DNA of 64,000 nucleotides from assembly GCA_964016885.1 (NCBI GenBank), contig OZ024741.1, forward strand, positions 343,294,001-343,358,000, in the 5' to 3' direction. The translations under genes were made by a program, and so were the position numbers. The stretch comes from Eledone cirrhosa (Eukaryota). Positions 1,190 to 63,950 of the stretch are shown piece by piece (within the stretch, counting starts at the first letter, position 1; every line of letters begins with the position of its first letter). The notes beneath the pieces were generated by a model. It saw only the letters and a program-made list of their open reading frames with translations. It searched no databases and had not been told where the DNA came from.

Positions 1190-1217
<28 letters not shown>

Positions 1218-1220
<3 letters not shown>

Positions 1221-1350
1221 ATAATAATAATAAATTTGAAGACTAAAATCCAAAGAGGGCTCGATAAGGATAAATATATATCAAATATATAAGAACCGTA
1301 GAGAAAATATTTATTAAAATAACAGATTAAATCTGTTATTTTAATAAATA
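1218..1350 (-). mobile_element. Minimal family F foldback (tail plus about 21-bp hairpin)
   Basis: Matches 38786-38895. Ends in TATTTATTAAAATAACAGATT/AATCTGTTATTTTAATAAATA. TA flanks. Confidence 0.75.
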
Positions 1351-1371
1351 TATATATATATATATATATTT

Positions 1372-1558
1372 GAAATATAGAATTGGCTTCTACAGGACTA
1401 AAACTATTTCATTCGAAGGAAATCATCCGGCTTTCCTGATAATTTCCTTCGAATGAAACACTTCTAGTCCTGTAGAAGCCATTTCTATATTAAAAATTTA
1501 TACTCAACTATGTATTGAGTACCTTACTATTGTGATTACCCCCGATTGAAACCGGGAT

Positions 1559-2293: not shown

Positions 2294-2759
2294 TTAACTA
2301 TTTTATCAGATGAGACGAGCTAGACGTTTCTGTAAAGATCGTTTAATTTCCTGAAACATTTGGTAATGGAATAATTATATTGTGTTGCTTATTAAATAAT
2401 TAAATAGCTCTGTACTATACAAAGAGCACTCTTTTTTCCTTTACCTTTTCTACGGAAATACTTAACACACACACACACACTCATATATATATATATATAT
2501 GTATATATATATGTATGAATATACACGTCCTAAACGTAACGACTTTTTCTTACTGTATTAAGCGTTAAACTAATATACTTTCTTGATTGTACATATGTAT
2601 ATAAGGTGTTTCCTTGTAAACAAAAGTTGCAGTGTAACTTGCAATGGTTCTGACAACACTCTTATAGGACATTTTATAAGCTTGATATCTTCCACAAGCA
2701 TTGTCTTCGCTCTATCTGTGATTATTTACTTTCTGGCAGAATCTCCGGTTCCGATTTCC

Positions 2760-5030: not shown

Positions 5031-5236
5031 GTATAATAAACAATACAATAAAATTACCTCATTACCAGAGGTTTCCCGAATAAAGCGAATACGAAAAACG
5101 TCCTCATTCGTTCATCGGACAAGGCAATGAGGTAATTATATTGTATTGTTTATTATACATTAAATTTTGCTCTGGTACTTACATAGAGCACTCTTCGCTC
5201 CTATGACGTTTTCAATTTTCAACAGAAACTTCAATA

Positions 5237-5332: not shown

Positions 5333-6617
5333 AACGCGTGTTTCTATGTGGTATTTGTACTTACACTTACGTTCATTAACTATATCACTCCTATGGATTT
5401 CTGGAGGTTTCTCTCTGTATCATGTTTGTCAATGAATTAAACCTCTCAATGTTATCTTTTCTTCTGTCTCGTTTGCAAGTCTGGCTTTATTTGTTTTGTC
5501 TTTGACATGATATATAAGCTCAACGTTGGAATACAACGAAGCACTTGTTAAATTTCAATCAATGCACGGACTCTGGTTCAGGATTATTGTTCGGGTATAA
5601 TATAGCTACTTTCTCTTATAGCTAAATCTATTTAAACGTCTTGGGTATCGTCAATTTGTAACTTTTGAAGCCGGCAATCTATTAAACCTGCCAACGCCGT
5701 CATCAAATCTCACTGGATTAATACGCCGTATTTCGTCTTGAAATTATCAAAGAAATAAGTACAGCGAGATAATAACCTAATGTATTTCGACTACTACAAT
5801 TCCCCTTTCTCCAGACAAGTCATATATTGATTTAGACCTTCAATCTCCGGAATTCAAGTAATTGGCTCAAAATCGCATGTGCGTAAGATAAATAAATATT
5901 TGTTCCGGTTCGTACAACTTGGAAGTCCTCATCGTTCTTATCTTTGTTGTGGTTAAAACTGTTTAAACTTCGTATGCTACTGTGGTGCATTTAAGCCTCC
6001 ACCAAGGGCCACGCCTCCATATATATATATATATAAGTTTATCCCGGGTTCAATCGGTGGTAACCACAGAGTATAAGCAGAGTATAAATATTTAATATAG
6101 AAATGGCTTCTACAGGATCGATCGACTTTCGTCAAATCGGACAGAAGAAAAAATGTTTTCGTCGGTCTTTCCAGTTGCAACTCCAGGTAGAAGGAGAAAC
6201 GTGAAATAAAGTGTCTTGCTCAAGGACATAGCGCATCGCTCGGTTCAGGAATCGAACTCACAACCTCAAGATAGTGAATCCAATTCTCTGACCAGTCAGC
6301 CACGCGCATTCATTTGGTTCTTATATATTTGATATACATTTATCCTTATCGAGCCCTCTTTGGATTTTAGTCTTCAATTTTATTATTATTACTATATATA
6401 GATATATATGTATATATATATGTGTGTGTATGTGTGTGTGTGTATGTATGTGTGTGTGTGTGCAAGTGTGTATGTGTGTGTTGAAAGAACAAAGATACAT
6501 GAAAAACAGGGAAACGAAAATCAGAATAAAATATGTTGATGATTTGAAATAAGTCCTTTGTCGGAAAGAAAATATAAACAGCGATGGACTAAAAAACAGA
6601 AGAGAAAGAGTGAAGGG

Positions 6618-13429: not shown

Positions 13430-14444
<1,015 letters not shown>

Positions 14445-16699: not shown

Positions 16700-16928
16700 C
16701 ATTACGACATTCTGAAAAACATTGATGGCGTATTATGTTCGATATTTTCCGTTCATTGCCAGGGAACGTCTTCACGAACCAAAGTATAGTCTTCCTGTTT
16801 TCCTTCGGTTGCAACGTTTTTCGAAATATATACTTCTGCGTTCACAGATGGATTTTTTTAGTTTCAGAAGATCCCGTTAAGGCTGAAAGCAGCGATTTTT
16901 TACTTAAACTTTAATCTGTTATTTTAAT
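16700..16928 (+). mobile_element. Family F arm with CAGAAGA-core HHR at 16860-16910
   Basis: Homologous to 38100-38297. Confidence 0.7.
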
Positions 16929-17631
16929 ATATAATATAAGCGAGGCAAGCCAGCCAGTGGCACTTCTTGCCAATAAACATTAACCCTTTGTACGCCATTC
17001 ATCTAACTGTAGACTAACAAATAGCAACTAAACGGAGCATTGACAAGAACGATGGCAAATGAATCTTCGAGGTAAGCAGTTTCATCTCGAGCTGTTAGTT
17101 CACGCGGGATTCTCTGCTACACCTTTTCGTAATAATACCGAACAACGTACTGCTGGTCACTCCTTCCTCCAAAAACCGTACAAAGCGGACATGTGCATCG
17201 GGCAGATGGATCGGGTGCAAATCTACACCGGGCCTACGCGAGAAATTCGCAAGGGACTGCACCGAGAGGGATAGAGAGAAAGAGTAACTTAGTGGAAAGA
17301 GTGCGAATGAACTTTTGAGGTAAGTAGCCTACGCCTTACTGCTATGACACTGGAACCTTCTGCCAACTTAACCTGTGACTTTCTCTTTCACATTTACTCC
17401 AAAATGCCAAAAACAGAGGAGTATGAAAAGAAGGGGCTCAACAATATTTCTATGAACAATGCACGTAGACAGCTAAACTGTACATTCAACTTCTTAATTT
17501 TCTCCGAATAAAACAAGTTTACTGTCGGTATATTTTCGTGAGTTTTTAACAGGCCCTCACAAATAAACTTTTCTCATTGGAGGTGCTATTACCAATGTTC
17601 TTACCCGTGCAACGCCGGGATACACTGCTAG
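16929..17631 (+). mobile_element. Non-autonomous Helitron (5' end approximate)
   Basis: 3' hairpin CCCGTGCAACGCCGGG followed by ACACTGCTAG|T. Confidence 0.65.
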
Positions 17632-19426: not shown

Positions 19427-19806
<380 letters not shown>

Positions 19807-20709: not shown

Positions 20710-22470
20710 AATGTATAATAAACAATACAATATAATTACCTCATTACCAGAGGTTTCCCGAATAAAACGAATACAAGAAACGTCCTCATTCGTTCGTCGG
20801 ACAAGGCAATTTAAAACATAGTGAAATATTTGAAAAATCTCCTCAAGAAAAGCAAAAGTTTAACGGGCGAAAAAATATATAAATAAAAGTAATGCAAGAG
20901 ATATATAAAAAAATAAAGAAATATAGTTAGGGTATGTGTATATGTATGTATATACACTCACAAATGTACATATGTGTGTATGTATAAATGCATGTGCATG
21001 GTGAAAATGTGTGCGTAAGTACATATATGAGGGCAAGCATATCAGTGTATGTGTGACCACAAATACGTATATAATATATGTTGAAAAAGAAATTGTAAGA
21101 TAATAGAGTTAACGTACATCCAGACTCAGGTACTAAGGATTGAAATATATACACATACAAGTATGAAAGCACGCGCATAAACACACACACGCGTGCAACC
21201 ACATACATGCGAGTGATATATACAGGAAAGGGAGTGTATCAGTCAAAGCAGTGTCAGGCTGAAGGTCGATCCATATATATAAATTAAAAATTGAAAAAAT
21301 ATATGAGAATAAAAAAATTAAAACAAAGAGAAAGTAAGGGGGAGGGGTTATCAATTATAAAGAAACACTTGAAAAAATAGAAAACAAACATAGGTTCGTA
21401 CATACACATATATATATAAAAATATATATATAAATACGTACAGACAAAAGCACACACATGCGGACATACATACAAAGGCGCGCATACATACACACGAAGC
21501 ACATATATATATACGTACATGTACATCTAATCACACGCACGCACGCGACTATATACATATATATACACATATACATACACATACATATATGTATATATAT
21601 TTATACACATACATATATATATAAGTATGTACACACACACATATATATAAGTATGTAAAAACATAGATATAAAAACACACATACACACACACGCGCACAT
21701 AGGAATGCATTCGTATACATATACAATCACGCGTACACACACATGCACACTCACACACATAGATACAATATAAAAACCAGCCGTATGAATAAATTAGTAC
21801 AAATTATACGCAAGTAAACATACATAAAAGCGGCTGAGAGACAACAGAATATATCTGAACTTGAAAACGCAAGTGACATGTGTTATTATATATCACTCGC
21901 ATGTATGTGGTTGCGCGCGTGTGTGTGTTTATACGCGTGCTTTCATACTTATATGTGTATATATTTCAATCCTTAGTACCTGAGTCTGGATGTACGTTAA
22001 CTCTATTATCTTACAATTTCTTTTTCAACATATATTATATACGTATTTGTGGTCACACATACACTGATATGCTTGCCCTCATATATGTACTTACGCACAC
22101 ATTTTTTCACTATACACATGCATTTGTACATACACACATATGTACATTTGTGAGTGAATATACACACATTTATACATATTTCCTTATTTTATTTTATATG
22201 TCTCTTGCATTACTCTTATTTATATATTTTTTCGCCCGTTAAACCTTTGCCTTTCTTCAGGAGATTTTTCAAATATTTCACTATGTTTTAAATTGCCTTG
22301 TCCGACGAACGAATGAGGACGTTTCTTGTATTCGTCTTATTCGGGAAACCTCTGGTAATGAGGTAATTATATTGTATTCTTTATTATACATTAAATTTAG
22401 CTCTGGTACTTACATAGAGCACTCTTCACTCCTATGACTTTTTCAATTTTGAACGGAAACTTCAATACTT
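20710..22470 (+). mobile_element. Long family D foldback: about 510-bp inverted arms, 78-nt tail, HHR at 22291-22368
   Basis: 20710-21222 is the reverse complement of 21887-22392. AATTGCCTTGT-CCGACGA...GAAA-CCTCTGG-TA-ATGAGGTAATT. Confidence 0.85.
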
Positions 22471-28794: not shown

Positions 28795-29330
28795 AAAAAA
28801 TAGGATTTCGCTTCAAGCATAGCTTTATACAATATGTATAAATATTTCGTATCTCCAAGGAAATACGGTTTCAGGAAGTCGTAGCTATGCAAACACCGGG
28901 GGGCTAACGCCCTCTGGTGATGTCCAGCAGAAGCAAGGGGGACAACCGTCTATGCATTTCAGGCTTAACTGGCCTTCGTCAGGACGGTCCCTCCCACCGC
29001 TTGCGACTGCTGGACTAGAAGACAGCCGAGAATATATACTTTTCTCGTATTGTAAATGAGGTGATTAATCTCATTTGCATATGAAGCTGCATAAGTTGGC
29101 TCAACTTATAATAAAAAAGAAATAGGATTTCGCTTCAAGCATAGCTTCATACAATACGAGAAATGTATATATTTTCGGCTGTCTTCTAGTCCAGCAGTCG
29201 CAAGCGGTGGGAGGGACCGTCCTGACGAAGGCCAGTTAAGCCTGAAATGCATAGACGGTTGTCCCCCTTGCTTCTGCTGGCTACGGCCTCCTAAAACCGT
29301 ATTTCCTTGGAGATACGAAATATTTATACA
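28795..29330. mobile_element. Family K foldback with two canonical HHRs
   Basis: 28835-29054 is inverted relative to 29150-29330. Tail duplicated at 28795 and 29113. Confidence 0.85.
29216..29259 (+). ncRNA. Canonical minimal type I HHR (inverted copy 28945-28988)
   Basis: ACCGTC-CTGACGA-AGGC-cagttaa-GCCT-GAAA-TGCA-TA-GACGGT. Stems I and II are perfect. Confidence 0.9.
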
Positions 29331-29436
<106 letters not shown>

Positions 29437-29705
29437 GTGTGTGTGTGTGGGCATTTTATAAGAAAATTAGAGGCATGATGACCTATTCTTTTTACTACAG
29501 AAAATAGTGTAAATAATAGGGTGCATAAGCCCCCTTAGCAGAAAAGCCAGACATTATCACCTGTGGAATCACGAACTTACTTGATTATGATGCCATTACA
29601 CCACACAAAACAAACAATTAGATGGTACCTCTAACTTTCTCAGAAACTTTCAAAATTCGCTCATCATTTCTAATCACACGTTGATATATATATACATATA
29701 TATAT

Positions 29706-30015
<310 letters not shown>

Positions 30016-34436: not shown

Positions 34437-34554
34437 TACATACAGTACAAAAAGGGTTTTATTTACAGTATTAACAATGTTTCATTGATTAGGATATCTA
34501 AAGAATGCTAATCACTCGAAGTTGTGTCACTCAATCTTAAATACAGTGTAACCC

Positions 34555-36624
34555 TATATATATCTCCTTCAAACGCGCACGCAATCTCCGCACACTCCTC
34601 GTCCGCAGCTCCCTACCCCCCAAGCTACGCCCCCCGCGATTCCCTTCCCTGCTCCAGGCCTCGTGGCCACACCTGCCTCCACATCACCAACACCACCACC
34701 TTCAAGGGTCCCAACGGCCACTTTCTCTCTGTCCGGTACGCCTTCCGCTGCACCTCCTCTAGCCTAGTCTATGGACTTCGCTGCACGGAGTACAGCGCAA
34801 CCTATGTCCGACAGATTGGACGTCGCCTGGCGGACCGTTTCACTGAACACCTCCGGGATATTCGTCTCGGCGGTAGTTCCCCCATCGCCCGCCACTTTGG
34901 CTTCCCTGGACATTCCGCCCACCACCTAACAGTCTGTGGCCTACTCCAATGCCACGGAACGCCCGCCATCCGCCTCACGGTCGAACAACGCACCATCTTC
35001 ACCCTACAAACCCATATACCCACCGGCAGAAAATCACCACCCTATTCCTTTAGCCTTCGACCGCCCTGTTTTCCTCCCACACACACATTTCCCCCACTAA
35101 CACCACTAACACACTCCTCCTTTTCACCGCCCACCCCATTGGCCCACCCCACCCCACCCCGGCCAACCTAACCGCCAACTAACAATACTAACATCCCCAC
35201 CCCTCCCCCTATCACGCACACACCCACCTGTACATATATACACGCACTCACACTATCCACACACCCTACTATCACCACTAACCCTAACCCACACATCCAC
35301 TCCAACCACCCCACAACTAATACCACTAACACCCCCCCCCCCCCGACCCCACGCACATGAACACACACCTTCCCACCCACACACACCTTCCCACCCACCC
35401 ACACCCACACCTACATGCACCACCTACTCTACACACCCAACCACCACTAACCCCCAGTAACACACCTTATTCAACCCTTTCCCCACCACCATTATACTAA
35501 CACCTACTAACACCCATTTACCACACACACACTCATCCCAACATGCACACACACACCAATACACCACACTCCCTCCACCATCTCCTACACCTTTTCTATC
35601 CCTCTCCCACTCCCGGCTCCACACACCACTTCACACACACACATCCCAGTAACACCTCTACTAATACACAGCCCATCCCCCCACATGACCCCCTCCCCAC
35701 TCCACCTTTCACACCTACCCATCCTCTCCCATGTCCATTGCACCTCCGCACACACAAGCACACAGTCCTCACCAAACACTGACTTTCTCCACCTGTCATT
35801 CTCCTCTACTGCTATGCCTTCATCCTGCCTTGACCCTCTGACCACTTCCTGTTGCGCGCGCACCACACATCTCCCCACTTCTGACCACCACAACCAACGG
35901 ATTACACACCACCGGTCATCGTTCCAGCTATCCACTCCATAACATGAAAAATATCCACCAACTTTTCGCACACTCCAGGGAACTACTTTAGGAACTTACC
36001 CACGGACATACGCTCACAATTTTTTTTCGAACCACGCCACCCACATCCACCCCACGTATAAAAACCAACACACACGTGCGTACCCCCACATATACACACT
36101 CAGCCTCCGGAATCCTCCTCCTCCCCTCCCCCACCACTCTGACCTCTCCCCATCCACACGCACACACCGACCTACACCCCCACACCTTTTTCTGAACATG
36201 GAAACTCGTTCTTCCCCCAACGCTCACATTCACATACACACACACACACACACACATGTACACCTACACACATACACAAACACCACCTTCAGCCCTCCCC
36301 GCTCGGATCCCCCGCCTCCCTCTCCCTACCCCACCCGCCACCACCCCTACACGCCCACAGCCTTCCACCACTTGTTTATCTTTATGCTTATTTTTATTTT
36401 TATTTGTACCCCTTCCACCGTTTTTCCTTCCTTTTCTCCCTCCCGCCTTTCTAAATGTCTCTCCACCACTCCCCCACACACCCTCGGAACTATCTTCCCA
36501 CCCAATTCTCTCCTGAAGAAGGGCTTATGCCCGAAACGTCGTCCCCCACCCCTCACTCTCAAGAGCGTGAAACTAATAAACCTTTGTTTGTACTGCCTCT
36601 CTTTTTTTGTTCCCGTTCCAGTTT

Positions 36625-37456: not shown

Positions 37457-37990
37457 CGAAGGAAATGTGGTAAGGAACCAGGTGGACCATAACGCACCAA
37501 AGTACTCAATACTTGAGGTAGTAGAGTGGGTAATAGGAACCAGTAAGACCCCGACAGCTGAGCTCAAGCCGTTTCGACGGCTAATTCTGGACTAAATGAA
37601 AATTTATCCTGGTATTTAAATAGCCGATCTTCTCAAGGGGTAATTCCATATATGGTCAAAGTGATTGTCAAAAATCAGTAGTAATTCTGTGGTTGCAAAT
37701 TAGTAGGGGAGATGGTGGCTAAACCTGCCAGTAGGTCTACTCCACCCCCTCCACCCCCTGATTGGGTCTACTCCACCCCCTCCCCTCTTTCTCCTACTGG
37801 CAGGTTTAGCCACCATCTCCCCTACTAATTTGCAACCACAGAATTACTACTGATTTTTGACAATCACTTTGACCATATATGGAATTACCCCTTGAGAAGA
37901 TCGGCTATTTAAATACCAGGATAAATTTTCATTTAGTCCAGAATTAGCCGTCGAAACGGCTTGAGCTCAGCTGTCGGGGTCTTACTGGTT

Positions 37991-37993: not shown

Positions 37994-38034
<41 letters not shown>

Positions 38035-38037
<3 letters not shown>

Positions 38038-38289
38038 ATAATAATACATTTCAAGACTAAAATCTGCGCGTAATTGTTTTTCACAGCTCCTATTAATGAC
38101 GTATTATATTCGTTTTTTCCCGTTCTTTGCCAGCGAACGTTTCCACGAAGCAAAGTATCGTCTTACTGTCTTCCTCCGGTTGCCATGTTTTTTGAAATAT
38201 CCACTTCTGCGTTTACAGATTGACTTTGTTAGTTTCAGAAGATCCCGTTAAGGTTGAAAGCAGCGATTCTTTGCTTAAACTTTAATCTG

Positions 38290-38297
<8 letters not shown>
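38035..38297 (+). mobile_element. Internally deleted family F foldback, HHR at 38231-38281
   Basis: 30 nt of tail end fused to a plus arm. AGTTT-CAGAAGA-TCCC..GGTT-GAAA-GCA..TGC-TT-AAACT. Confidence 0.75.
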
Positions 38298-38342
<45 letters not shown>

Positions 38343-38347
<5 letters not shown>

Positions 38348-38770
38348 CAACAGACCAGTGTCTGTCCTTAGGGCATCAACATACGTTAACCTTGGTCTTC
38401 CTCTTCTAGTGCGTCCATGTAGGCGCTCTCAAAGGAGCACTGAGTGCAATGTCAAATCTGGATGTCGGTGAGCATGTCCAGCTAACCTTAGTCTCCTCTG
38501 TGTCACTTTTGAGCTGACATTTGGGAGGCTCCCATACAGCTCTGAGTTTTTCATCCTCAGTGTATACTGATTAATGTTCAGAGCCATCGTCAGCATTCTC
38601 GTGTAGCACCCATCCACCATCTGAATGAGTTTCTTGGTCAGTGTCCAAGTCTCAGACCCATACAGCAGCACAGACTCCACTGGAGACGCAGAACATGGCA
38701 CCGATAATGAGGGACAGAGACCGCTGGAGAGAACTCGTCCATGGATCTCGGGAATTTTACCCGCCTTAGA
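38343..38770. mobile_element. RTE-clade LINE 3' end with 5' inversion (same family as 25998)
   Basis: Minus 38343-38680: VESVLLYGSETWTLT..DGCYTRML..RRLRLAGH. Plus 38681-38770 is the terminal 90 nt. TGGAGAC is shared at the break. Confidence 0.9.
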
Positions 38771-38785
38771 TAGATAGATATATAT

Positions 38786-39335
38786 AGTAATAATAATAAA
38801 TTTGAAGACTAAAATCCAAAGAGGGATCGATAAGGATAAATATATATCAAATATATAAGAACCGTAGAGCAAATATTTATTAAAATAACAGATTAAAGTT
38901 TAAGCAAAGAATCGCTGCTTTCACCCTTAACGGGATCTTCTGAAACTAACAAAGTCAATCTGTGACCGCAGAAGTGGATATTTCAAAAAACGTTGCAACC
39001 GGAGGAAGACAGGAAGACGATACTTTGGTTCGTGGAAACGTTCCCTGGTAAAGAACGGGAAAAAACGAATATAATACGTCATTAATAGGAGCGGTGAAAA
39101 ACAATTACACGCAAAGACAGAACCACGTTTATGGTATAAAAGAAGTCGTAGACTAATGTTCTCTTAGGTGGTTCATAGAGACGTTCTCTGGCAAAGAACG
39201 GAAAAAACGAAGATAATACGTAATATGTGGAGCGTGGAGAACAATTGCACGCAAAGACAAAACCACGTAAATGGTATAGCTGAAGTCGTAGACTAAAATT
39301 CTAACTAGGAAACCAAATGATTCTCCGCTTCAGAG
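38786..39335 (-). mobile_element. Family F long arm with tail, HHR at 38897-38947 and an internal ~144-bp tandem duplication
   Basis: Reverse complement of 38066-38297 plus tail. 39026-39169 resembles 39170-39309. Confidence 0.75.
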
Positions 39336-40854
39336 TTAAGAATAAAGTAAATAAAATACAATACATAGGTAATTGAAATTAAATAAATACATACACGCAT
39401 CCAAATACGTACATACACAAGCATACGCGAAAACACTCACCATAGATATACAAAACCACGCACATATACATATGTGTGTGCGTGTGTGCGTGTATACAAA
39501 TAAATAAGTAATTAAATAAACGTATATAAATAAATAAATACGTATATAACAAGCGCACACACATACCTACATGTAAATACACAAATGTTCGGAGACGTAC
39601 GACAACCAAAACATGAAGTACACATATACACACACACCACATACGTACGAACCCGCATACTCACACAGACGCAAAAGTCCCGTATACACATAACCAAAAG
39701 CATATGTACCTGAATATATAAAAATATACGCCATAACATATACAATCAAATATACGTACGGGAAAGTATACGTACCTTCACAAAACATACAGGTAATATA
39801 TACTTACCTATGCAAATAAGTAATGGTATAAACATAACATATACTTAGCTACCACATCAAGACGTAAAATATCCACGTATAGATCGAACTATCCGTTAGG
39901 GTATAATGTGGGGCTGTAATACAGGAAAGTTTTGTGCAATTTATGTTTACAAGCCGAAATTGCCTCAGATTTTTTGTTTCAGATGTGGTCTGTGGCGTAT
40001 AGTATTTCCAGGGCCTCAGCGGCGCAGAGGTCACATGGTCTTTTATTTCCGTTATACGATCTAGCCCTATATTTATTAAAATAACAGATTAAAATAACAG
40101 ATTAAAGTTTATATTTAATATTTTTGTCTTTCAAGGACCATATGAGTTCTGAGAGAGCCGTGTTGGTTCTTTTAACACGGCTCTCTCAGAACTCATATGG
40201 TCCTTGAAAGACAAAAATATTAAATATAGCATCTTTTGGAAGAAGGTTTCTTCTGCGTCTGCATACTTGAACAGTTCTCTATCCAAGATTTGCAATCTCT
40301 GTCTAAATGAAAAATTTACCATTATATCTAATTTAGATTCTATAATAAATAGACGCACTGACTTGTTTTCTATCTGCTTGCATAAATTCCACAAAACATT
40401 CCACAAAGTATACAGCTAATATCCAAATCATTATCAATTTAGAATCTTTTTCTCAAAGGCACATATATATATACACTTCTTTAAAAATATACCCATCTTT
40501 CTACCTTATTTCAAAGGTTTTATTATACATTATATAATACTTGTTACTCATTCTATAATACTTGTTACTCATTCTATATCGCTCCTATTTATCACTTCCC
40601 TTTCTTCTCTTTTTCTTTTAATGTCTAACCCCTAATCTGTACCTTTTCTCACTGTTGCCTAACATAGAATCAATTATTACATAATACAATACATTCTTAC
40701 TCTATAACACCTCGTAAAAATCCTTCGTAAACATAAACATTTTTTTGACGTTAGATTATTCATCCTCAATTCATTATTCTTTTCTCCCTTTCATCTAACT
40801 CATTCATGCTCATCTCACAATATATCCTTACTTAAATTACCTGTTGTTCTTTTT

Positions 40855-48724: not shown

Positions 48725-51460
48725 TTAATTTAGCTTGGGTTGGAATTTATCAATAAAATTCTTTTCTTTAATTTTTCTCTTGATTTCACTTGGGCTGTAT
48801 AGTTTGTAGAATGGAAATATTATAAATATTTTCTGACCACATGTTGCTAGATGGTTACTCAGGGGGTATCTGACGGACATTTAGGTCTCTGATTTGCTGT
48901 CGGTGCACCGTGCACGTTCCGATAGTGCATTTCCAGTTTGACCGACATATAGTTCTTCACAATTCGGGCATTTAATGCAGTAAATTAGATTTCTGCTTTT
49001 GCAGTTAATATTTGCCTTTGGGAATATTTTTCCAGTTTTTGTGTTCATATATTGACCAGTGTGTATGAACTGACATGTGCCACATCGACTACCATTGCAT
49101 TTAGATACAGTGAATGATTGGTTTTTGTTGGTAAGGTCAAACTTTGCCTTTGTTAGTAATTGCTTCAAATTTTTCGGCTATCTTTTACTAAGAATCAAAG
49201 CTCGGTCTGTGATTAAACCTTTTAATTCATTACTTTCAGCAATGATCGGTAGGTTTGCTTTGGCAGTGTTGAAGATATTCTGGTGACATGGGTTGTGTGT
49301 CATTATAAATGGTATGACCAGTTCTTGGTTTCTTCTTCCTTGGGTTGTCCTAAGTTGTTGTATAGGTATTATTATAGCCCGCTGTATACCATTTTCTATA
49401 AGTAGAGATGGGTATTTTTGTTTGAGCAAACATTCTCTCAGTTCTGTTAGGCGTTTGTTCCTGGTATTCGTATCTTCTACAATGGTACAAATTCGTCTGG
49501 CTAGGCAGTATGGGAAGTTGCGTTTTGTATGAGCTGGATGGCACGACTTAAAATTAAGATATTGATGGGTGTCTGTGTGTTTATAGTATATATCCGTGGT
49601 AATAGTGGTGTCGTTTTTTATTACCATTATATCTAGGAATGGTTATTTGGTACTACTCATCTCTTTTGTAAATTGGAGTGATGGTTGTAGGTTATTCAGG
49701 AGGATATTGAACTCATCCAGAGTATCTAGAGATTCTGTCCAGATGATGAAACAGTCGTCAAGGTATCTCTTCCAAGACTTTTCAACGCAGTTTCTAAATT
49801 AAGTGCTATATTTTCCTCTATTTCTTGGTAGAGTTGTTGTTCTAAGTATCCCATTACAGAGTTCGCGTAAACGGGAGCAACTTCGTTCTCATCGCTGTGC
49901 CTCTAATTTGGATGTAACTCTTTCCATTGAAGAAGACAGTGTTGTTTTCCAGAATAAGTCTGATATAAATGGCGCTGTGAATCTGGTGGGAATCACTACT
50001 CTATGTTATTCCACCCAGTATTTAACCGCCTTTATTCCTAAATCATGTGTAATGTTGGTGTAAATGCTTACCACATCAAAACTAAGTAGAAGTGAATTCG
50101 TTTCCGTGGTTTTGGGAAGATGGGACAGGAAGTCGATATCATCCCGGATGAGACTGGGTATGTGAATACATAATGGTTTCAAAATATTTTTTCTGCTTTT
50201 GGCACAAGGCCAGCAATTACCCAGTGCATTACTGGTACTTTATTTTATCGACCTGCGTAAGGATGAAAGGCAAAATCAACCTCGGCGGGATTTGAACTCA
50301 GATCGTTAAGGGACGCAACTATCCTGGAAAGCATGGCGTCCAACCCTCTACCGATACTGCCAATCCACCGCCTTTGGTTTCAAAATAATGTTAACAAAAT
50401 TGCTTACACGGTGAGAAGGGCATGTTGGACCAGCTATAAAAGGTCTAAGTTTTAAGTATTTTGGGTGCAGTAATTTAATGTACTCACTTTTTTGTTCTTT
50501 CACTGCCAGTTGGATTTCTTTTGACTTATGAATTTTCGGTAAGCCATAAAAGTTGCTGGGTTTTGGCTCAAATTTGGTGATAATTGTGATTATTAATTAT
50601 CAGTAAGGGAGTTGTAGTATTTTGAAGCCAGGTTGTTGATCTTCTTCATGATGTTGTGGTCTATATTTGACGGTATTTCATGATAGAATGTTGTGTCTTT
50701 CAGTTGTTCCTCACCCAAATCTTTGTAGTATTCAGCATCCATTAAAACAACTGCATCCCCTTTATCTGCTTGTTTAATTATTATTGTTTTATCATTTTGT
50801 ATACGTTTAAGTGCAACAATTTCCGATTTGTTAATGTTTGGCCTAACATTAGTATCACGTCTAAGAGGGAATTTAGACAGGATATCAATGTATTGGTCGA
50901 GATAGATATTTCTTTCTTTTTGCGGAGTGAAATTTGATTTATTCTTTACTAGTGATTCATCACTCTCATTACTTTTATCAGCGAAGAATTCTACAAGTCG
51001 TAATTTACGACAGAATTCTTGGGTATTCTCCTTTAGTTCTTGATGGTTGACTGTTGGTGTCGGTGTGAATTTCAGTCCTTTTGACAGAATTTGCATTTCG
51101 TCATTGTAAAGATCTCTTTTGGATAAATTAACTATTTTAGGATCTACGTGTACAGTTGTTTTCGGTATGTTTCCTCCTGGAGTTTTTCTTTTTCCGGTTT
51201 TTGTTGAAGTTAAAAAATGGATTTTTCTCTGATCAAGATTTATATTCCTGTTGGTGTTTGCTTGATGACCTTTTGGTCATGATATTATACTTAGTTTCGT
51301 TGTTTTGTGTCCAATTTTTGGTATTATGTATATTATTTTTTCCATTTCTTGTTAGCATTGTTTTTAACAATCTGGGAAAATGACCTAAATTTACCTAGGT
51401 TTGCTTTCAGGTTTAGATCGTTTTTTTGCCCAGTTTCTTCTGGGTAATCTCTGTTGAGAT
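48725..51460 (-). mobile_element. Decayed near-full-length PLE ORF (Neptune/Nematis-like RT + GIY-YIG)
   Basis: Motifs LSKGLKFTPTP, IIKQADKGDAVV, RYLDDCFIIW (near 49740-49770), TDIYYKHTDTHQYL..SCHP, CNGSRCGTC, LIYCIKCPNCEELYVGQT, ending FQPKLN*. Multiple stops and frameshifts. The 5' end abuts (TA)n. Confidence 0.9.
50187..50374 (-). mobile_element. tRNA-derived SINE inserted into the PLE RT, with 13-bp TSD
   Basis: TGGTTTCAAAATA at 50174-50186 and 50375-50387 flanks the SINE body. Confidence 0.9.
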
Positions 51461-52000: not shown

Positions 52001-52249
52001 TGTATATATATATATATATGGTATTAAATAAATAGAAACTATATTTATAAAACCATATTTATTTCGTTATATATATTTCAGGGATATCATATTAACAATA
52101 TGTTATGCCATCTTCAGACAAAATACAATATAAACAGTCTTATAAATAAATAGATACGACATACCTTTCAATCACCTTGCATTTGGGAGGTTGATTTGGC
52201 AGTAAAAAATATTGTGGACAGTTGTGAAAAGAAAGAGATAAAGAGAGAA

Positions 52250-53591
52250 ATATTATCGGCTAGGAAAACATTGATAGAATTTAATGGCCAACTATGGACT
52301 CGAGCAGATAGAGATAACAATTTTGACATTACTATGGGATCATCCGACTCAGCTCAGGTAACTGACCTTGTGGGCTTATTTTTAATCAATTCGCTGCATA
52401 GGAAAATACCTGGTACTACCGGAGGTTTATATAGAGATGACATGCTTTTACTTATTGATAATAATAACTCTGAACTAAATAGAAAAAGAAAACAAATTAC
52501 ACAATTTTTTAATCACTTTAATCTAAAAATAGAAATTGAGAATAACCATAGAATAGTCAACTTCCTAGATATAACATTAAATCTCAACACATGTCTTCAC
52601 TATCCATTTCACAAGTTGAATGAAAACTTAAACTATGTCAGCTTTAACTCTAACCACCCCAAATCTGTTAAAAATACTATAGTAAACTCTGTTCAATCAC
52701 GTATCTCTAGAATCTCATCTAATAAAAAGATTTTCGACGAAAAAGCCCATTATTACAATGAAGCGTTAGCTAGAGCAGGATATAGTGATAAAATTATGTA
52801 CATAGATAATGATAAACAAATTAAACAAAATAACAACTATTTTAATTATGGCCACAACCTTAACAACTATAATAGAAAGCATTACAATAATTCCAAAAGC
52901 CATAAAAGAAATAGAACTAGGAATATAATATGGTTTGCCCCCCCCTTTCTCACTAAACATTAAAACCCACATTGCTAAACTATTTTTTAAAGCTCTCGAT
53001 AATCGCTTCCCTAGAACACATAGGTATCACTCAATTTTCAATAGACATACTATAAAACTAACCTACTCATCCACCAAAAATTTAGCGCAAAATATTAATA
53101 GAATAAATAACAGGAACTTAAAACCTAGCGATAATAGCATAAATAATATCCAAGTTAACAAATGTAACTGTAGAGATAGATCTAAATGTCCGTTAAATAA
53201 CAACTGCTTAGTTAAAAATATAATATACAACTGTAATGTTAAAACGGACGTTAATTCTTTTAACTACGTTGGTTCTACATCGACGGAATTTAAACTTCGC
53301 TATAACAACCACAAGAATTCTTTCACAGATCCATCCAAAAAATCTTCAACAGCACTATCAGGCGTACTCTGGCAACTTAGGCATGATAACGTTAGATATT
53401 CGACGACTTGGAATATAGTTTCAAGTGGGATTCCTTTTAATTCATCCTCTGAGACATGTGACCTCTGTGCGGAGGAGATATTCTTTATACTAAAATCTAA
53501 AAATTCCCTTAATCTACGGACAAATTTATTCAGTTGCTGCAGACATAGATTGAACTCAACGTTTAAATATAAATTTAAATTTAAAATGTAG
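52250..53591 (+). pseudogene. PLE reverse transcriptase (C-terminal half) plus GIY-YIG endonuclease, split by one frameshift near 52940
   Basis: Motifs FDITMGSSDSAQVTDLVG, GLYRDD, VNFLDITL, YVSFNSNHP, IIWFAPPF; then CNC..CPL..C, IIYNC..YVGST..FKLRYNNHK, CDLC..E..LNLRTNLFSCCRHR. The frame changes in the C8 run at 52938-52945. The track ORF start at 52196 lies in the inverted arm and is not a real start. Confidence 0.9.
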
Positions 53592-63230: not shown

Positions 63231-63248
63231 ATATATATATATATATAC

Positions 63249-63283
<35 letters not shown>

Positions 63284-63287
<4 letters not shown>

Positions 63288-63481
63288 AGAGTCAGGACCC
63301 CGACGGCTGAGCTCCGGCCGTTCCGTTTCTACAGCTAGATCCGACAGTTCGGATCTAGCTGTAGAAACGGCCGGAACTCAGCCGTCGGGGTCCTGACTCT
63401 TTTCATATTACCCAGTCTACTATCCTAAGTATCGAGTACTCTGGTGCGTTATGGTCCACCTGGTATCTTACCACACCTTTG
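63284..63481 (+). mobile_element. Family H-related foldback
   Basis: 63284-63344 is inverted relative to 63349-63405. GAAACGGC...GCCGTC-GGGGT. Tail contains TCGAGTAC. Confidence 0.8.
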
Positions 63482-63716
63482 TATATATATATATATATAT
63501 ATATAAAATAATTGTTTCTACTTTTGGCACAAGGCCAGCAATTACCCAGTGCATTACTGGTACTTTATTTTATCGACCCCGTAAGGATGAAAGGCAAAGT
63601 TAACCTCGGCGGGATTTGAACTCAGAATGGCAAGGGCCGTAACTCTATGCATCAAAGCATGGCATCCAACTCTCTACCGATACTGCCAATTCACCGCCCT
63701 TGTTGATATATATATA

Positions 63717-63950
63717 AAATAATGGTAGTTAAGATGGGATTAAATCACCAGAATTTCTGTTACATGGTTATTCATGTAACTTCGTCAGATTCTTACGCAG
63801 TAATAGGTGTAGTTATGCAATCTTTGTGATATGCCGGTGGATATGCAAATCTATTAATTAGTGTAGTCACACGAATAACCATGTAACAGAAATATGTATC
63901 CTGCAATAAACAATTATGGTGAATTAATCCCGTTTTAACTACCATTATTT
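63717..63950. mobile_element. Family P foldback with HHR core on minus strand
   Basis: 63717-63781 is inverted relative to 63865-63950. CTGACGA-AGTTAC/GTAAC-AGAAA at 63758-63788 (minus). Confidence 0.6.

What the first reader, a model, noticed from the sequence alone, without database searches (positions are those of the whole stretch)
38231..38281. HHR with fixed U4A core (CAGAAGA) in family F
Seen: all three copies (16860-16910, 38231-38281, minus 38897-38947) have AGTTT-CAGAAGA-stem II-GAAA-stem III (GCA..TGC in two, weakened in the 16860 copy)-TT-AAACT. The change is therefore in the family consensus, not copy decay. Known: U4 of the CUGA turn is highly conserved, so descriptor searches would miss this. 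Activity is unknown.
Basis: partly seen in the sequence, partly recalled or inferred. Interest (0 to 1): 0.7.

Follow-up and report, generated by a model that had tools for sequence, protein, structure and literature searches.

The report
Jumping-gene hammerhead with altered core base
A repeat family that is likely the end piece of a Penelope-type jumping gene carries a hammerhead-ribozyme-shaped motif with A in place of a normally fixed core U as its family norm rather than as decay, and this motif is predicted to be a slow self-cutting RNA whose activity is untested.

Summary
All 3 hammerhead-bearing copies in the window read CAGAAGA (A at core position 4). Raw genomic reads (10,339 laid; depth about 6,000 near position 4) show no U at the 4% threshold. 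All 13 contigs covering the site, from three other organism labels, also have A, and so do both subfamilies. A4 is the family norm.

The rest of a type I hammerhead is intact: C3-G8, G5, A6, A9, G12, A13, A14, A15.1-U16.1 and a CUU site. The motif lies about 29 nt before a (TA)n-flanked 3' end, with tandem and inverted pieces typical of Penelope-like pseudo-LTRs, but no ORF is attached.

The most likely reading is an attenuated, possibly protein-assisted ribozyme (about 50%). A catalytically dead relic kept for another reason is the main rival (about 35%). No covariation or RNA evidence was obtained. Core variants are known (U3-A8, viroid U4C, U10.1-U11.1), and a neighbouring family here has C4. 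I found no natural family-wide U4A in the papers searched. Verdict: new variant of a known kind, moderate interest.

The parts
38231..38281 (+). Type I hammerhead-like motif, flagged copy. C3=38236, A4=38237, G8=38241, G12=38256; predicted cut between 38276 and 38277. Stem II weakened by a C-U mismatch.
38215..38290 (+). Extended stem I: distal 9-bp helix (38215-38223 with 38282-38290) and 7-nt 5' bulge (38224-38230)
38065..38305 (+). 5'-truncated family F copy (likely Penelope-like pseudo-LTR end), ending about 29 nt after the predicted cut and running into (TA)n
38029..38064 (-). 36-nt inverted piece of the distal 3' end (tail) fused at the 5' junction of the 38231 copy
38897..38947 (-). Best-preserved copy of the motif (all 21 modelled pairs canonical, counting the distal helix 38955-38963 with 38888-38896). 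A4=38941; predicted cut between 38902 and 38901. Used as reference for read laying.
38781..39302 (-). Longest family F copy: about 140-nt partial tandem (39026-39162 and 39169-39302, 82% alike), hammerhead, and long 3' end (about 120 nt past the cut)
16860..16910 (+). Third motif copy, second subfamily (carries the alternative letters in the stem I bulge); 3 of 21 pairs broken; A4=16866
16721..16933 (+). Family F copy of the second subfamily, 86-89% identical to the other two
40069..40111 (-). Short family F 3' fragment whose homology begins at the predicted cut (position 0 or +1), with a 13-nt internal duplication
1212..1352 (.). Fold-back of two family F 3' ends, centred about 5-7 nt downstream of the predicted cut; no hammerhead core
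6316..6398 (+). Family F tail-only fragment (starts 39 nt after the cut)

Best explanation
Family F is likely the 3' pseudo-LTR end of a Penelope-like retroelement, and it carries, as its family norm, a type I hammerhead-shaped motif with A at core position 4 that is predicted to self-cleave slowly after CUU. Shown: A4 is fixed in both subfamilies and in the four organism labels laid. All other core bases, the C3-G8 pair, the three helices and a distal stem I are present, and the motif sits where U4 hammerheads sit in sister families. Inferred: G12 (general base) and G8 (general acid) would still do the chemistry. A4 would lose the contact that U4 makes with the A6-N7 phosphate, and with the U10.1-U11.1 mismatch and a 3-bp stem II this would lower the rate. 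The long stem I and, as for the Anolis Poseidon element, binding of the element's RT-endonuclease protein would supply enough folding help for occasional cleavage of tandem transcripts. Because cleavage is not needed for insertion in that element in vitro, a slower core could fix in a master copy and still amplify.
For: A4 fixed: no T>A at 38941 at the 4% threshold among 10,339 reads laid (depth about 6,000 in bin 38934-38941). Of 18 contigs laid from organism labels B, G and P, 13 cover the site and none changes it, including a subfamily-2 contig with 17 differences in 149 nt. Core plus stems hold 0 of 51 positions polymorphic at 20-90%, against 13 of 107 upstream (Fisher p=0.0099). The two nearest subfamily changes (38950, 38954) fall in the 7-nt stem I bulge and none in the 9-nt distal arm beside it (computed on the 40 rows shown of 70). 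Descriptor chance: 0 hits in 200 shuffles. A covariance model trained only on six U4 motifs of other families finds 3 of 3 copies among 25 hits (E 0.6, 5.2, 7.8; the one shown aligned is in the predicted register), at the level of canonical motifs of untrained families (41379 E 0.71; 52060 E 6.1). The architecture (N-U at 10.1-11.1, 3-bp stem II, long loop III) matches the U4 family at 13656, with a similar folding gap (2.6-7.8 against 4.4-6.9 kcal/mol). Literature: viroid U4C keeps in vivo function, U10.1-U11.1 occurs naturally, and U4 contacts the A6-N7 phosphate (PMC3088659). The Poseidon hammerhead is protein-assisted and dispensable for insertion in vitro (PMC11167929). One fragment starts at the predicted cut and one fold-back lies 5-7 nt after it.
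Against: There is no activity or RNA data. No compensatory change was seen in any helix, so the fold rests on complementarity and position, not on covariation. Loops II and III and the 10 nt 3' of stem I also show no change at 20% or more (one search list), so the whole 3' block is conserved, which also fits a recent 3'-end swap between subfamilies or a protein-binding role. The distal 5' arm alone is not significant (0 of 9 against 7 of 34, p=0.31). Core conservation alone is weak: at about 12% subfamily divergence, 0 changes in 11 core bases has a chance of about 0.25 (my arithmetic, no call). In a type III hammerhead all single and double mutants of the CUGA region except the C3-G8 swap had low activity (PMC9901934). 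Covariance-model E-values are individually not significant. In sister families fragments also begin 3 and 6 nt upstream of the cut, so truncation near the site need not mean cleavage. No RT or GIY-YIG ORF is attached to family F in the window. Runs were chosen by shared words with the A4 sequence and laid at 80% likeness or more, so a more distant U4 parent would be missed.
Confidence: 0.5

Rival explanations
1. Dead ribozyme relic. U4A abolished useful cleavage in a master copy. The 3' block stayed conserved because it is the RT-binding or initiation region, or because subfamilies share a recently exchanged 3' end, and the family amplified without a working hammerhead.
For: Hammerhead mutants do not impair insertion of the Anolis element in vitro, and no RNA-seq reads ended at its cut (PMC11167929). 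Naiad elements proliferate without canonical hammerheads (PMC8557442). CUGA-region mutants had low activity (PMC9901934). The whole 3' block, loops included, is invariant at the subfamily level. No covariation was seen.
Against: All ten other core bases and all helices persist across two subfamilies and four organism labels. The subfamily changes next to the motif sit in the bulge and skip the distal arm that lies upstream of them (not significant alone). A second family here tolerates C4 with an otherwise intact core, which suggests position 4 is the tolerant one.
Confidence: 0.35
2. Fully active variant. A4 is neutral or favoured in this scaffold because the stem I bulge and loop II make a tertiary contact that compensates, so rates are near those of U4.
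For: A4 is fixed over two expansions and four organism labels. The motif has a long stem I and its own 3-bp stem III, so it may work as a monomer. Non-U letters recur at position 4 in the window: C in 3 copies, A in one diverged relative. One fragment starts at the cut.
Against: Published mutagenesis points to low activity for CUGA changes. The bulge that would make the contact varies between subfamilies. No compensating change could be identified, and A against U at position 4 made no consistent difference to fold competition.
Confidence: 0.08
3. The motif is a hammerhead variant, but the host repeat is a non-autonomous retrozyme or SINE-like element unrelated to Penelope-like elements.
For: No ORF is attached in any of the window's fragments; a short tandem unit is present.
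Against: The 140-nt tandem unit lacks the hammerhead, whereas retrozyme repeats carry one per unit (recalled). 5' truncation, inverted junctions (table 5), a 36-nt inverted tail and (TA)n flanks match the description of Penelope-like insertions (PMC8557442).
Confidence: 0.05
4. Chance resemblance to a hammerhead in an AT-rich repeat end.
For: No Rfam hammerhead hit. The minimum-energy folds are not the hammerhead and z-scores are near zero. Model E-values are 0.6-7.8.
Against: 0 hits in 200 shuffled windows. Rfam also misses the canonical U4 motif at 29215. The U4 family at 13656 shows the same folding gap. The position in the element equals that of canonical motifs.
Confidence: 0.02

Closest known systems
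Type I hammerheads of Penelope-like elements (Cervera & De la Pena 2014, PMC4209133; main text parts 1-2 of 4 and supplement parts 1-2 of 3 read), closest row Marsupenaeus japonicus
   Same: Type I topology near the 3' end of a truncated repeat; short helix I and II; a non-G-C start of stem II directly after A9 as in the M. japonicus row (A-U there); low activity expected.
   Different: A at position 4 (56 of 56 rows of their Fig. S3 have U, though their descriptor fixes the core); U-U at 10.1-11.1; a 3-bp stem III with a 9-nt non-palindromic loop, so dimer formation through a palindromic helix III is not indicated; a 9-bp distal stem I.
Natural core variants (Perreault et al. 2011, PMC3088659; section 8, passages and text of Fig. 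S7 read)
   Same: Position 4 can vary in nature (viroid U4C, reduced in vitro, still infectious); U10.1-U11.1 is reported in natural motifs.
   Different: No U4A is named in the text (0 occurrences; Fig. 5 itself is not held). Here the variant is the norm of a multi-copy, multi-species repeat family and not a rare isolate.
Poseidon element of Anolis carolinensis, PAc (Frangieh et al. 2024, PMC11167929; parts 1-2 of 4 read)
   Same: Hammerhead in the pseudo-LTR, two alternative 3' ends, insertion into AT-rich DNA.
   Different: PAc has a linked ORF, and its cleavage was shown and needs protein. Family F has no linked ORF in this window, and its two 3' ends lie about 29 and 120 nt past the cut.
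Rfam Hammerhead_1 (RF00163; accession recalled)
   Same: Same permutation and core layout.
   Different: No match at E up to 10; the canonical neighbour at 29215 is missed too.

Membership tests
Canonical hammerhead ribozyme (type I) | U at core position 4 (CUGANGA) | tested here: not met
   A in 3 of 3 window copies, U below 4% in reads, A in 13 of 13 covering contigs. Filed as a variant, not as a canonical member.
Canonical hammerhead ribozyme (type I) | C3-G8, G5, A6, A9, G12, A13, A14, A15.1-U16.1, NUH site | tested here: met
   Present in 3 of 3 copies; none of these places appears among the 40 variant rows shown (30 rows hidden).
Canonical hammerhead ribozyme (type I) | Three helices around the core | tested here: met
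   21 of 21 modelled pairs canonical in the 38897 copy, 20 of 21 in 38231, 18 of 21 in 16860; chance 0 in 200 shuffles. No covariation seen.
Canonical hammerhead ribozyme (type I) | G10.1-C11.1 pair | tested here: not met
   U-U. Reported as a natural tolerated state and also seen in U4 motifs at 13662 and 62718.
Canonical hammerhead ribozyme (type I) | Loop 1-loop 2 tertiary contact | not testable with these tools
   A stem I bulge and a 5-nt loop II exist; the bulge differs between subfamilies.
Canonical hammerhead ribozyme (type I) | Site-specific self-cleavage | not testable with these tools
   Needs an assay; only indirect fragment ends.
Canonical hammerhead ribozyme (type I) | Match to an Rfam hammerhead model | tested here: inconclusive
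   No hit, but the canonical control at 29215 is missed too.
Penelope-like element (EN+) | Linked RT plus GIY-YIG ORF | tested here: inconclusive
   No ORF of 100 aa or more within family F fragments except one that runs from the tail into another repeat; all copies are truncated; no genome is held.
Penelope-like element (EN+) | Partial tandem, 5' truncation and inverted 5' pieces | tested here: met
   140-nt partial tandem; truncated copies; 13 of the 15 joints shown are opposite-strand joints in or beside the motif.
Penelope-like element (EN+) | Optional 30-40 bp tail at one end | tested here: inconclusive
   A 36-nt inverted terminal piece sits at 38029-38064, but the two alternative 3' ends are about 92 nt apart.
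Penelope-like element (EN+) | Insertion into (TA)n or AT-rich DNA; hammerhead near the 3' end | tested here: met
   2,247 plus 446 reads run from 38873-38874 into TA repeats; the motif lies about 29 nt from that end.

The most novel reading that the evidence does not exclude
A subclass of Penelope-element hammerheads has a relaxed position 4 (A in family F, C in a second family of the same genome) and cleaves efficiently because an extended stem I or the element's own protein replaces the U4 contact. The textbook core would then be CNGANGA in this context, and CUGA-based searches would have missed whole multi-copy ribozyme families in animal genomes.
Probability: 0.12. Interest if true: 0.7.

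Novelty: new variant of a known kind. Interest (0 to 1): 0.45.

Why it matters
What the hammerhead does for Penelope-like elements is unsettled (PMC8557442, PMC11167929). A family that amplified at least twice with a changed core base is a natural experiment. If the RNA cleaves, position 4 is more tolerant than the consensus says and searches should free it. If it does not, these elements can spread with a dead ribozyme, and the conserved 3' fold has another job. Either result comes from one cheap assay on a 76-nt RNA. It does not point to a new chemistry or a new class of system.

Tried and rejected
Host genome: none held, so reads replaced an assembly consensus.

RNA: no RNA holder was listed among 23 runs, which is no evidence either way.

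Rfam: the whole-window E-value scan was swamped by microsatellite matches to miRNA models (150 of 373 rows shown). The gathering scan gave 0 hits, and local scans gave no hammerhead for family F or for a canonical control.

Collections: pattern scans found 0 matches in metagenome contigs and viral contigs, so no U4 sister family or linked ORF was found.

Misfolding: the idea that A4 creates an anti-ribozyme helix with upstream CUUCUG was rejected. A against U at position 4 shifted the folding gap by at most 1.3 kcal/mol, in both directions, over 5 contexts.

Pfam: 0 families for 8 of 8 candidate retroelement ORF fragments elsewhere in the window, so their RT or GIY-YIG labels are recalled only.

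Discarded or uninformative calls: (pair counts) used a mis-registered structure string, so pairs are taken. MAFFT misaligned motifs with long loop III. In one search the gaps for 29215 and 62712 are inflated by a lone-pair constraint and were not used. In one search the site given as 2330 was wrong (true C3 is 2307) and 54523 gave no full motif.

Cut-site test: my read reference ended at 38870, too close to the cut to test for a pile-up of 5' truncations there. Table 6 listed none, and 200 loose-end rows were hidden.

Literature: no relevant paper for 'hammerhead ribozyme'+'U4A' (0), for hammerhead with U4A/U4G/A4U/CAGA core/CAGANGA (8 listed, none on this), or for hammerhead+ribozyme+octopus (7 listed). 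Lunse et al. 2017 and one review on core mutagenesis were not held and may bear on novelty. An octopus repeat paper and its supplement had no hammerhead or motif match. PMC11014351 section 23 gave nothing on position 4.

Full report
Setting. The window is AT-rich, microsatellite-laden animal DNA packed with repeat fragments. It looks like a cephalopod genome to me; that is recalled, not tested, and no genome is held. It holds about twenty hammerhead-like motifs in several repeat families.

Observation. The three copies are exactly as described. Numbered as a type I hammerhead, they have a 5-bp proximal stem I, the core C3 A4 G5 A6 A7 G8 A9, a U-U at 10.1-11.1, a 3-bp stem II with a 5-nt loop, G12 A13 A14, A15.1-U16.1, three more pairs of stem III with a 9-nt loop, and a CUU site. 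Of 21 modelled pairs, 21 are canonical in the 38897 copy, 20 in the flagged copy (stem II broken once) and 18 in the 16860 copy. A descriptor with position 4 free finds 7 sites in the window, 6 with U4 and the 38897 copy, and none in 200 shuffled windows. Rfam gives no hammerhead hit but also misses the canonical motif at 29215. A covariance model built only from six U4 motifs of other families returns all three copies among 25 hits, with E 0.6, 5.2 and 7.8; canonical motifs of untrained families score in the same range. An earlier three-sequence model found 1 of 3 (E 3.9). This is consistent with a hammerhead but not significant alone.

Is A4 the family norm? A run search listed 23 runs, 20 holding part of the stretch, none on record as RNA. 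I laid 4 of them on 38870-39080 at 80% likeness and a 4% threshold. In the raw reduced-representation reads of organism A (X21), 10,339 reads were laid, spanning from 99% to under 90% identity, with depth about 6,000 in the bin holding position 4. U4 would appear as T>A at 38941. The only T>A place is 38877, and all three T>C places lie elsewhere. One T>G place is hidden among 30 rows not shown, so a minor C4 class is not excluded. Of 18 contigs laid from labels B, G and P, 13 cover the site and none changes it. The reads reveal at least two subfamilies that differ at many upstream sites. The 16860 copy carries the second subfamily's letters in the bulge, and one contig of label B with 17 differences in 149 nt still has A4.

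Is the motif under constraint? From the 40 rows shown, 0 of 51 core and stem positions are polymorphic at 20-90%, against 13 of 107 upstream (p=0.0099). At a 10% floor it is 1 of 51 against 25 of 107, the one being a CpG change that keeps a G-U pair. Two subfamily changes sit in the 7-nt bulge and none in the adjacent distal arm (0 of 9 against 7 of 34 neighbours, p=0.31). Against a catalytic reading, the loops and the 10 nt downstream are just as invariant at that level, no compensatory change appears, and depth is about twice as high in the 3' block. The conservation shows that the 3' block is shared. It does not show that catalysis is selected.

What element is it? Copies are 5'-truncated and end either about 29 nt past the predicted cut, running into (TA)n (2,247 plus 446 reads at 38873-38874), or about 120 nt past it. 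The longest copy has a 140-nt partial tandem. The flagged copy begins with a 36-nt inverted piece of the far 3' end, and most joints listed in the reads are strand inversions in or beside the motif (13 of 15 shown). These match the description of Penelope-like insertions: partial tandems, inverted truncated copies, a 30-40 bp tail and microsatellite targets (PMC8557442, passages). Sister families carry U4 hammerheads near their ends in the same way, and the 13656 family shares the U-U mismatch, 3-bp stem II and long loop III. No coding region is attached, so membership is likely but not shown. The stretch between the two inverted copies (about 38343-38767) is another repeat. One fragment (40111-40069) starts at the predicted cut and a fold-back at 1212-1352 is centred 5-7 nt after it. 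This fits copying of cleaved RNA, but in two other families fragments begin 3 and 6 nt upstream of the cut, so it is only a hint.

Mechanism. Established knowledge: G12 and G8 are the catalytic guanosines (roles recalled; one search names two catalytic G residues), and C3-G8 pair. U4 contacts the phosphate between A6 and N7; a viroid U4C variant is much slower in vitro yet still infectious; U10.1-U11.1 is the best-tolerated mismatch (PMC3088659). In a type III hammerhead, CUGA-region mutants other than the C3-G8 swap had low activity (PMC9901934, passages). Penelope hammerheads are slow in vitro (PMC4209133). The Anolis one needs its protein and is dispensable for insertion in vitro (PMC11167929). 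I therefore commit to a slow, possibly protein-assisted ribozyme (0.5), with a dead relic as the main rival (0.35), full activity at 0.08, a non-Penelope host repeat at 0.05 and chance at 0.02. Nearest-neighbour energies do not favour the hammerhead fold, but the canonical 13656 motif shows a similar gap, and the letter at position 4 makes no consistent difference.

Novelty. All 56 representative motifs in Fig. S3 of PMC4209133 have U4 (their search fixed the core). Known natural variants include U3-A8, A6C, insertions and U4C. My searches found no natural U4A family, but two relevant papers were not held, figures are not readable, and the text of Fig. S7 of PMC3088659 (inactive variants) could not be parsed for position 4. 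Within this window position 4 is U in 15 listed motifs, C in 3 (one family) and A in 3 (family F), plus A in one diverged relative of the C4 family at 2307. Position 4 thus seems the loosest core base here, which makes the variant less singular and a general relaxation more plausible. Two earlier scan notes, unchecked here, report an A4 core with a deletion in phage type III motifs and a U3-A8 Penelope motif.

Verdict. A real, family-wide core variant of a known ribozyme in a likely Penelope-like repeat. Activity is untested. New variant of a known kind; interest 0.45.

Noticed in passing
window 5053-5128 (-), 20734-20811 (-), 22291-22368 (+): A second repeat family whose type I hammerhead-like motif has C at position 4 in 3 of 3 close copies, with a 10-11 bp stem I, an A-G mismatch at 10.1-11.1 and an otherwise intact core.
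   Followed up: partly
window 2300-2371 (+), C3 at 2307: Diverged relative (about 78% alike) of the C4 family with A at position 4; stem I pairs (7 bp), stems II and III look decayed; single copy, may be decay.
   Followed up: partly
window 37887-37980 (+) and 37548-37641 (-): Inverted pair of hammerhead-like motifs with the known U3-A8 core swap, a long stem II and a palindromic stem III; fragments of the same family at 19622-19763, 29684-29756 and 63242-63392.
   Followed up: no
window 874, 41378, 13656, 28944, 29215, 30508, 37000, 52060, 62712: Canonical U4 type I hammerhead-like motifs of at least five families; none reaches an Rfam gathering score, so this motif class is under-covered by Rfam.
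   Followed up: partly
window 1363-1502: Fold-back of two copies of the 13656 family; the forward copy has A at core position 8.
   Followed up: no
window 40110-40228: Perfect 55-bp inverted repeat with a 9-nt spacer that abuts the family F fragment starting at the predicted cut; origin unknown.
   Followed up: no
window 34512-35171 (+), 49178-49642 (-), 50593-51276 (-), 52154-53591 (+): Broken ORF pieces that look like Penelope-type RT and GIY-YIG domains by recalled motifs; Pfam found no family for them; not linked to family F.
   Followed up: partly
window 63503-63723 and about ten other places (1663, 8466, 11580, 18646, 22862, 48446, 50181, 58846): An abundant short interspersed repeat of about 200 nt; a weak hammerhead-like match lies beside one copy at 63716-63793 (-).
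   Followed up: no
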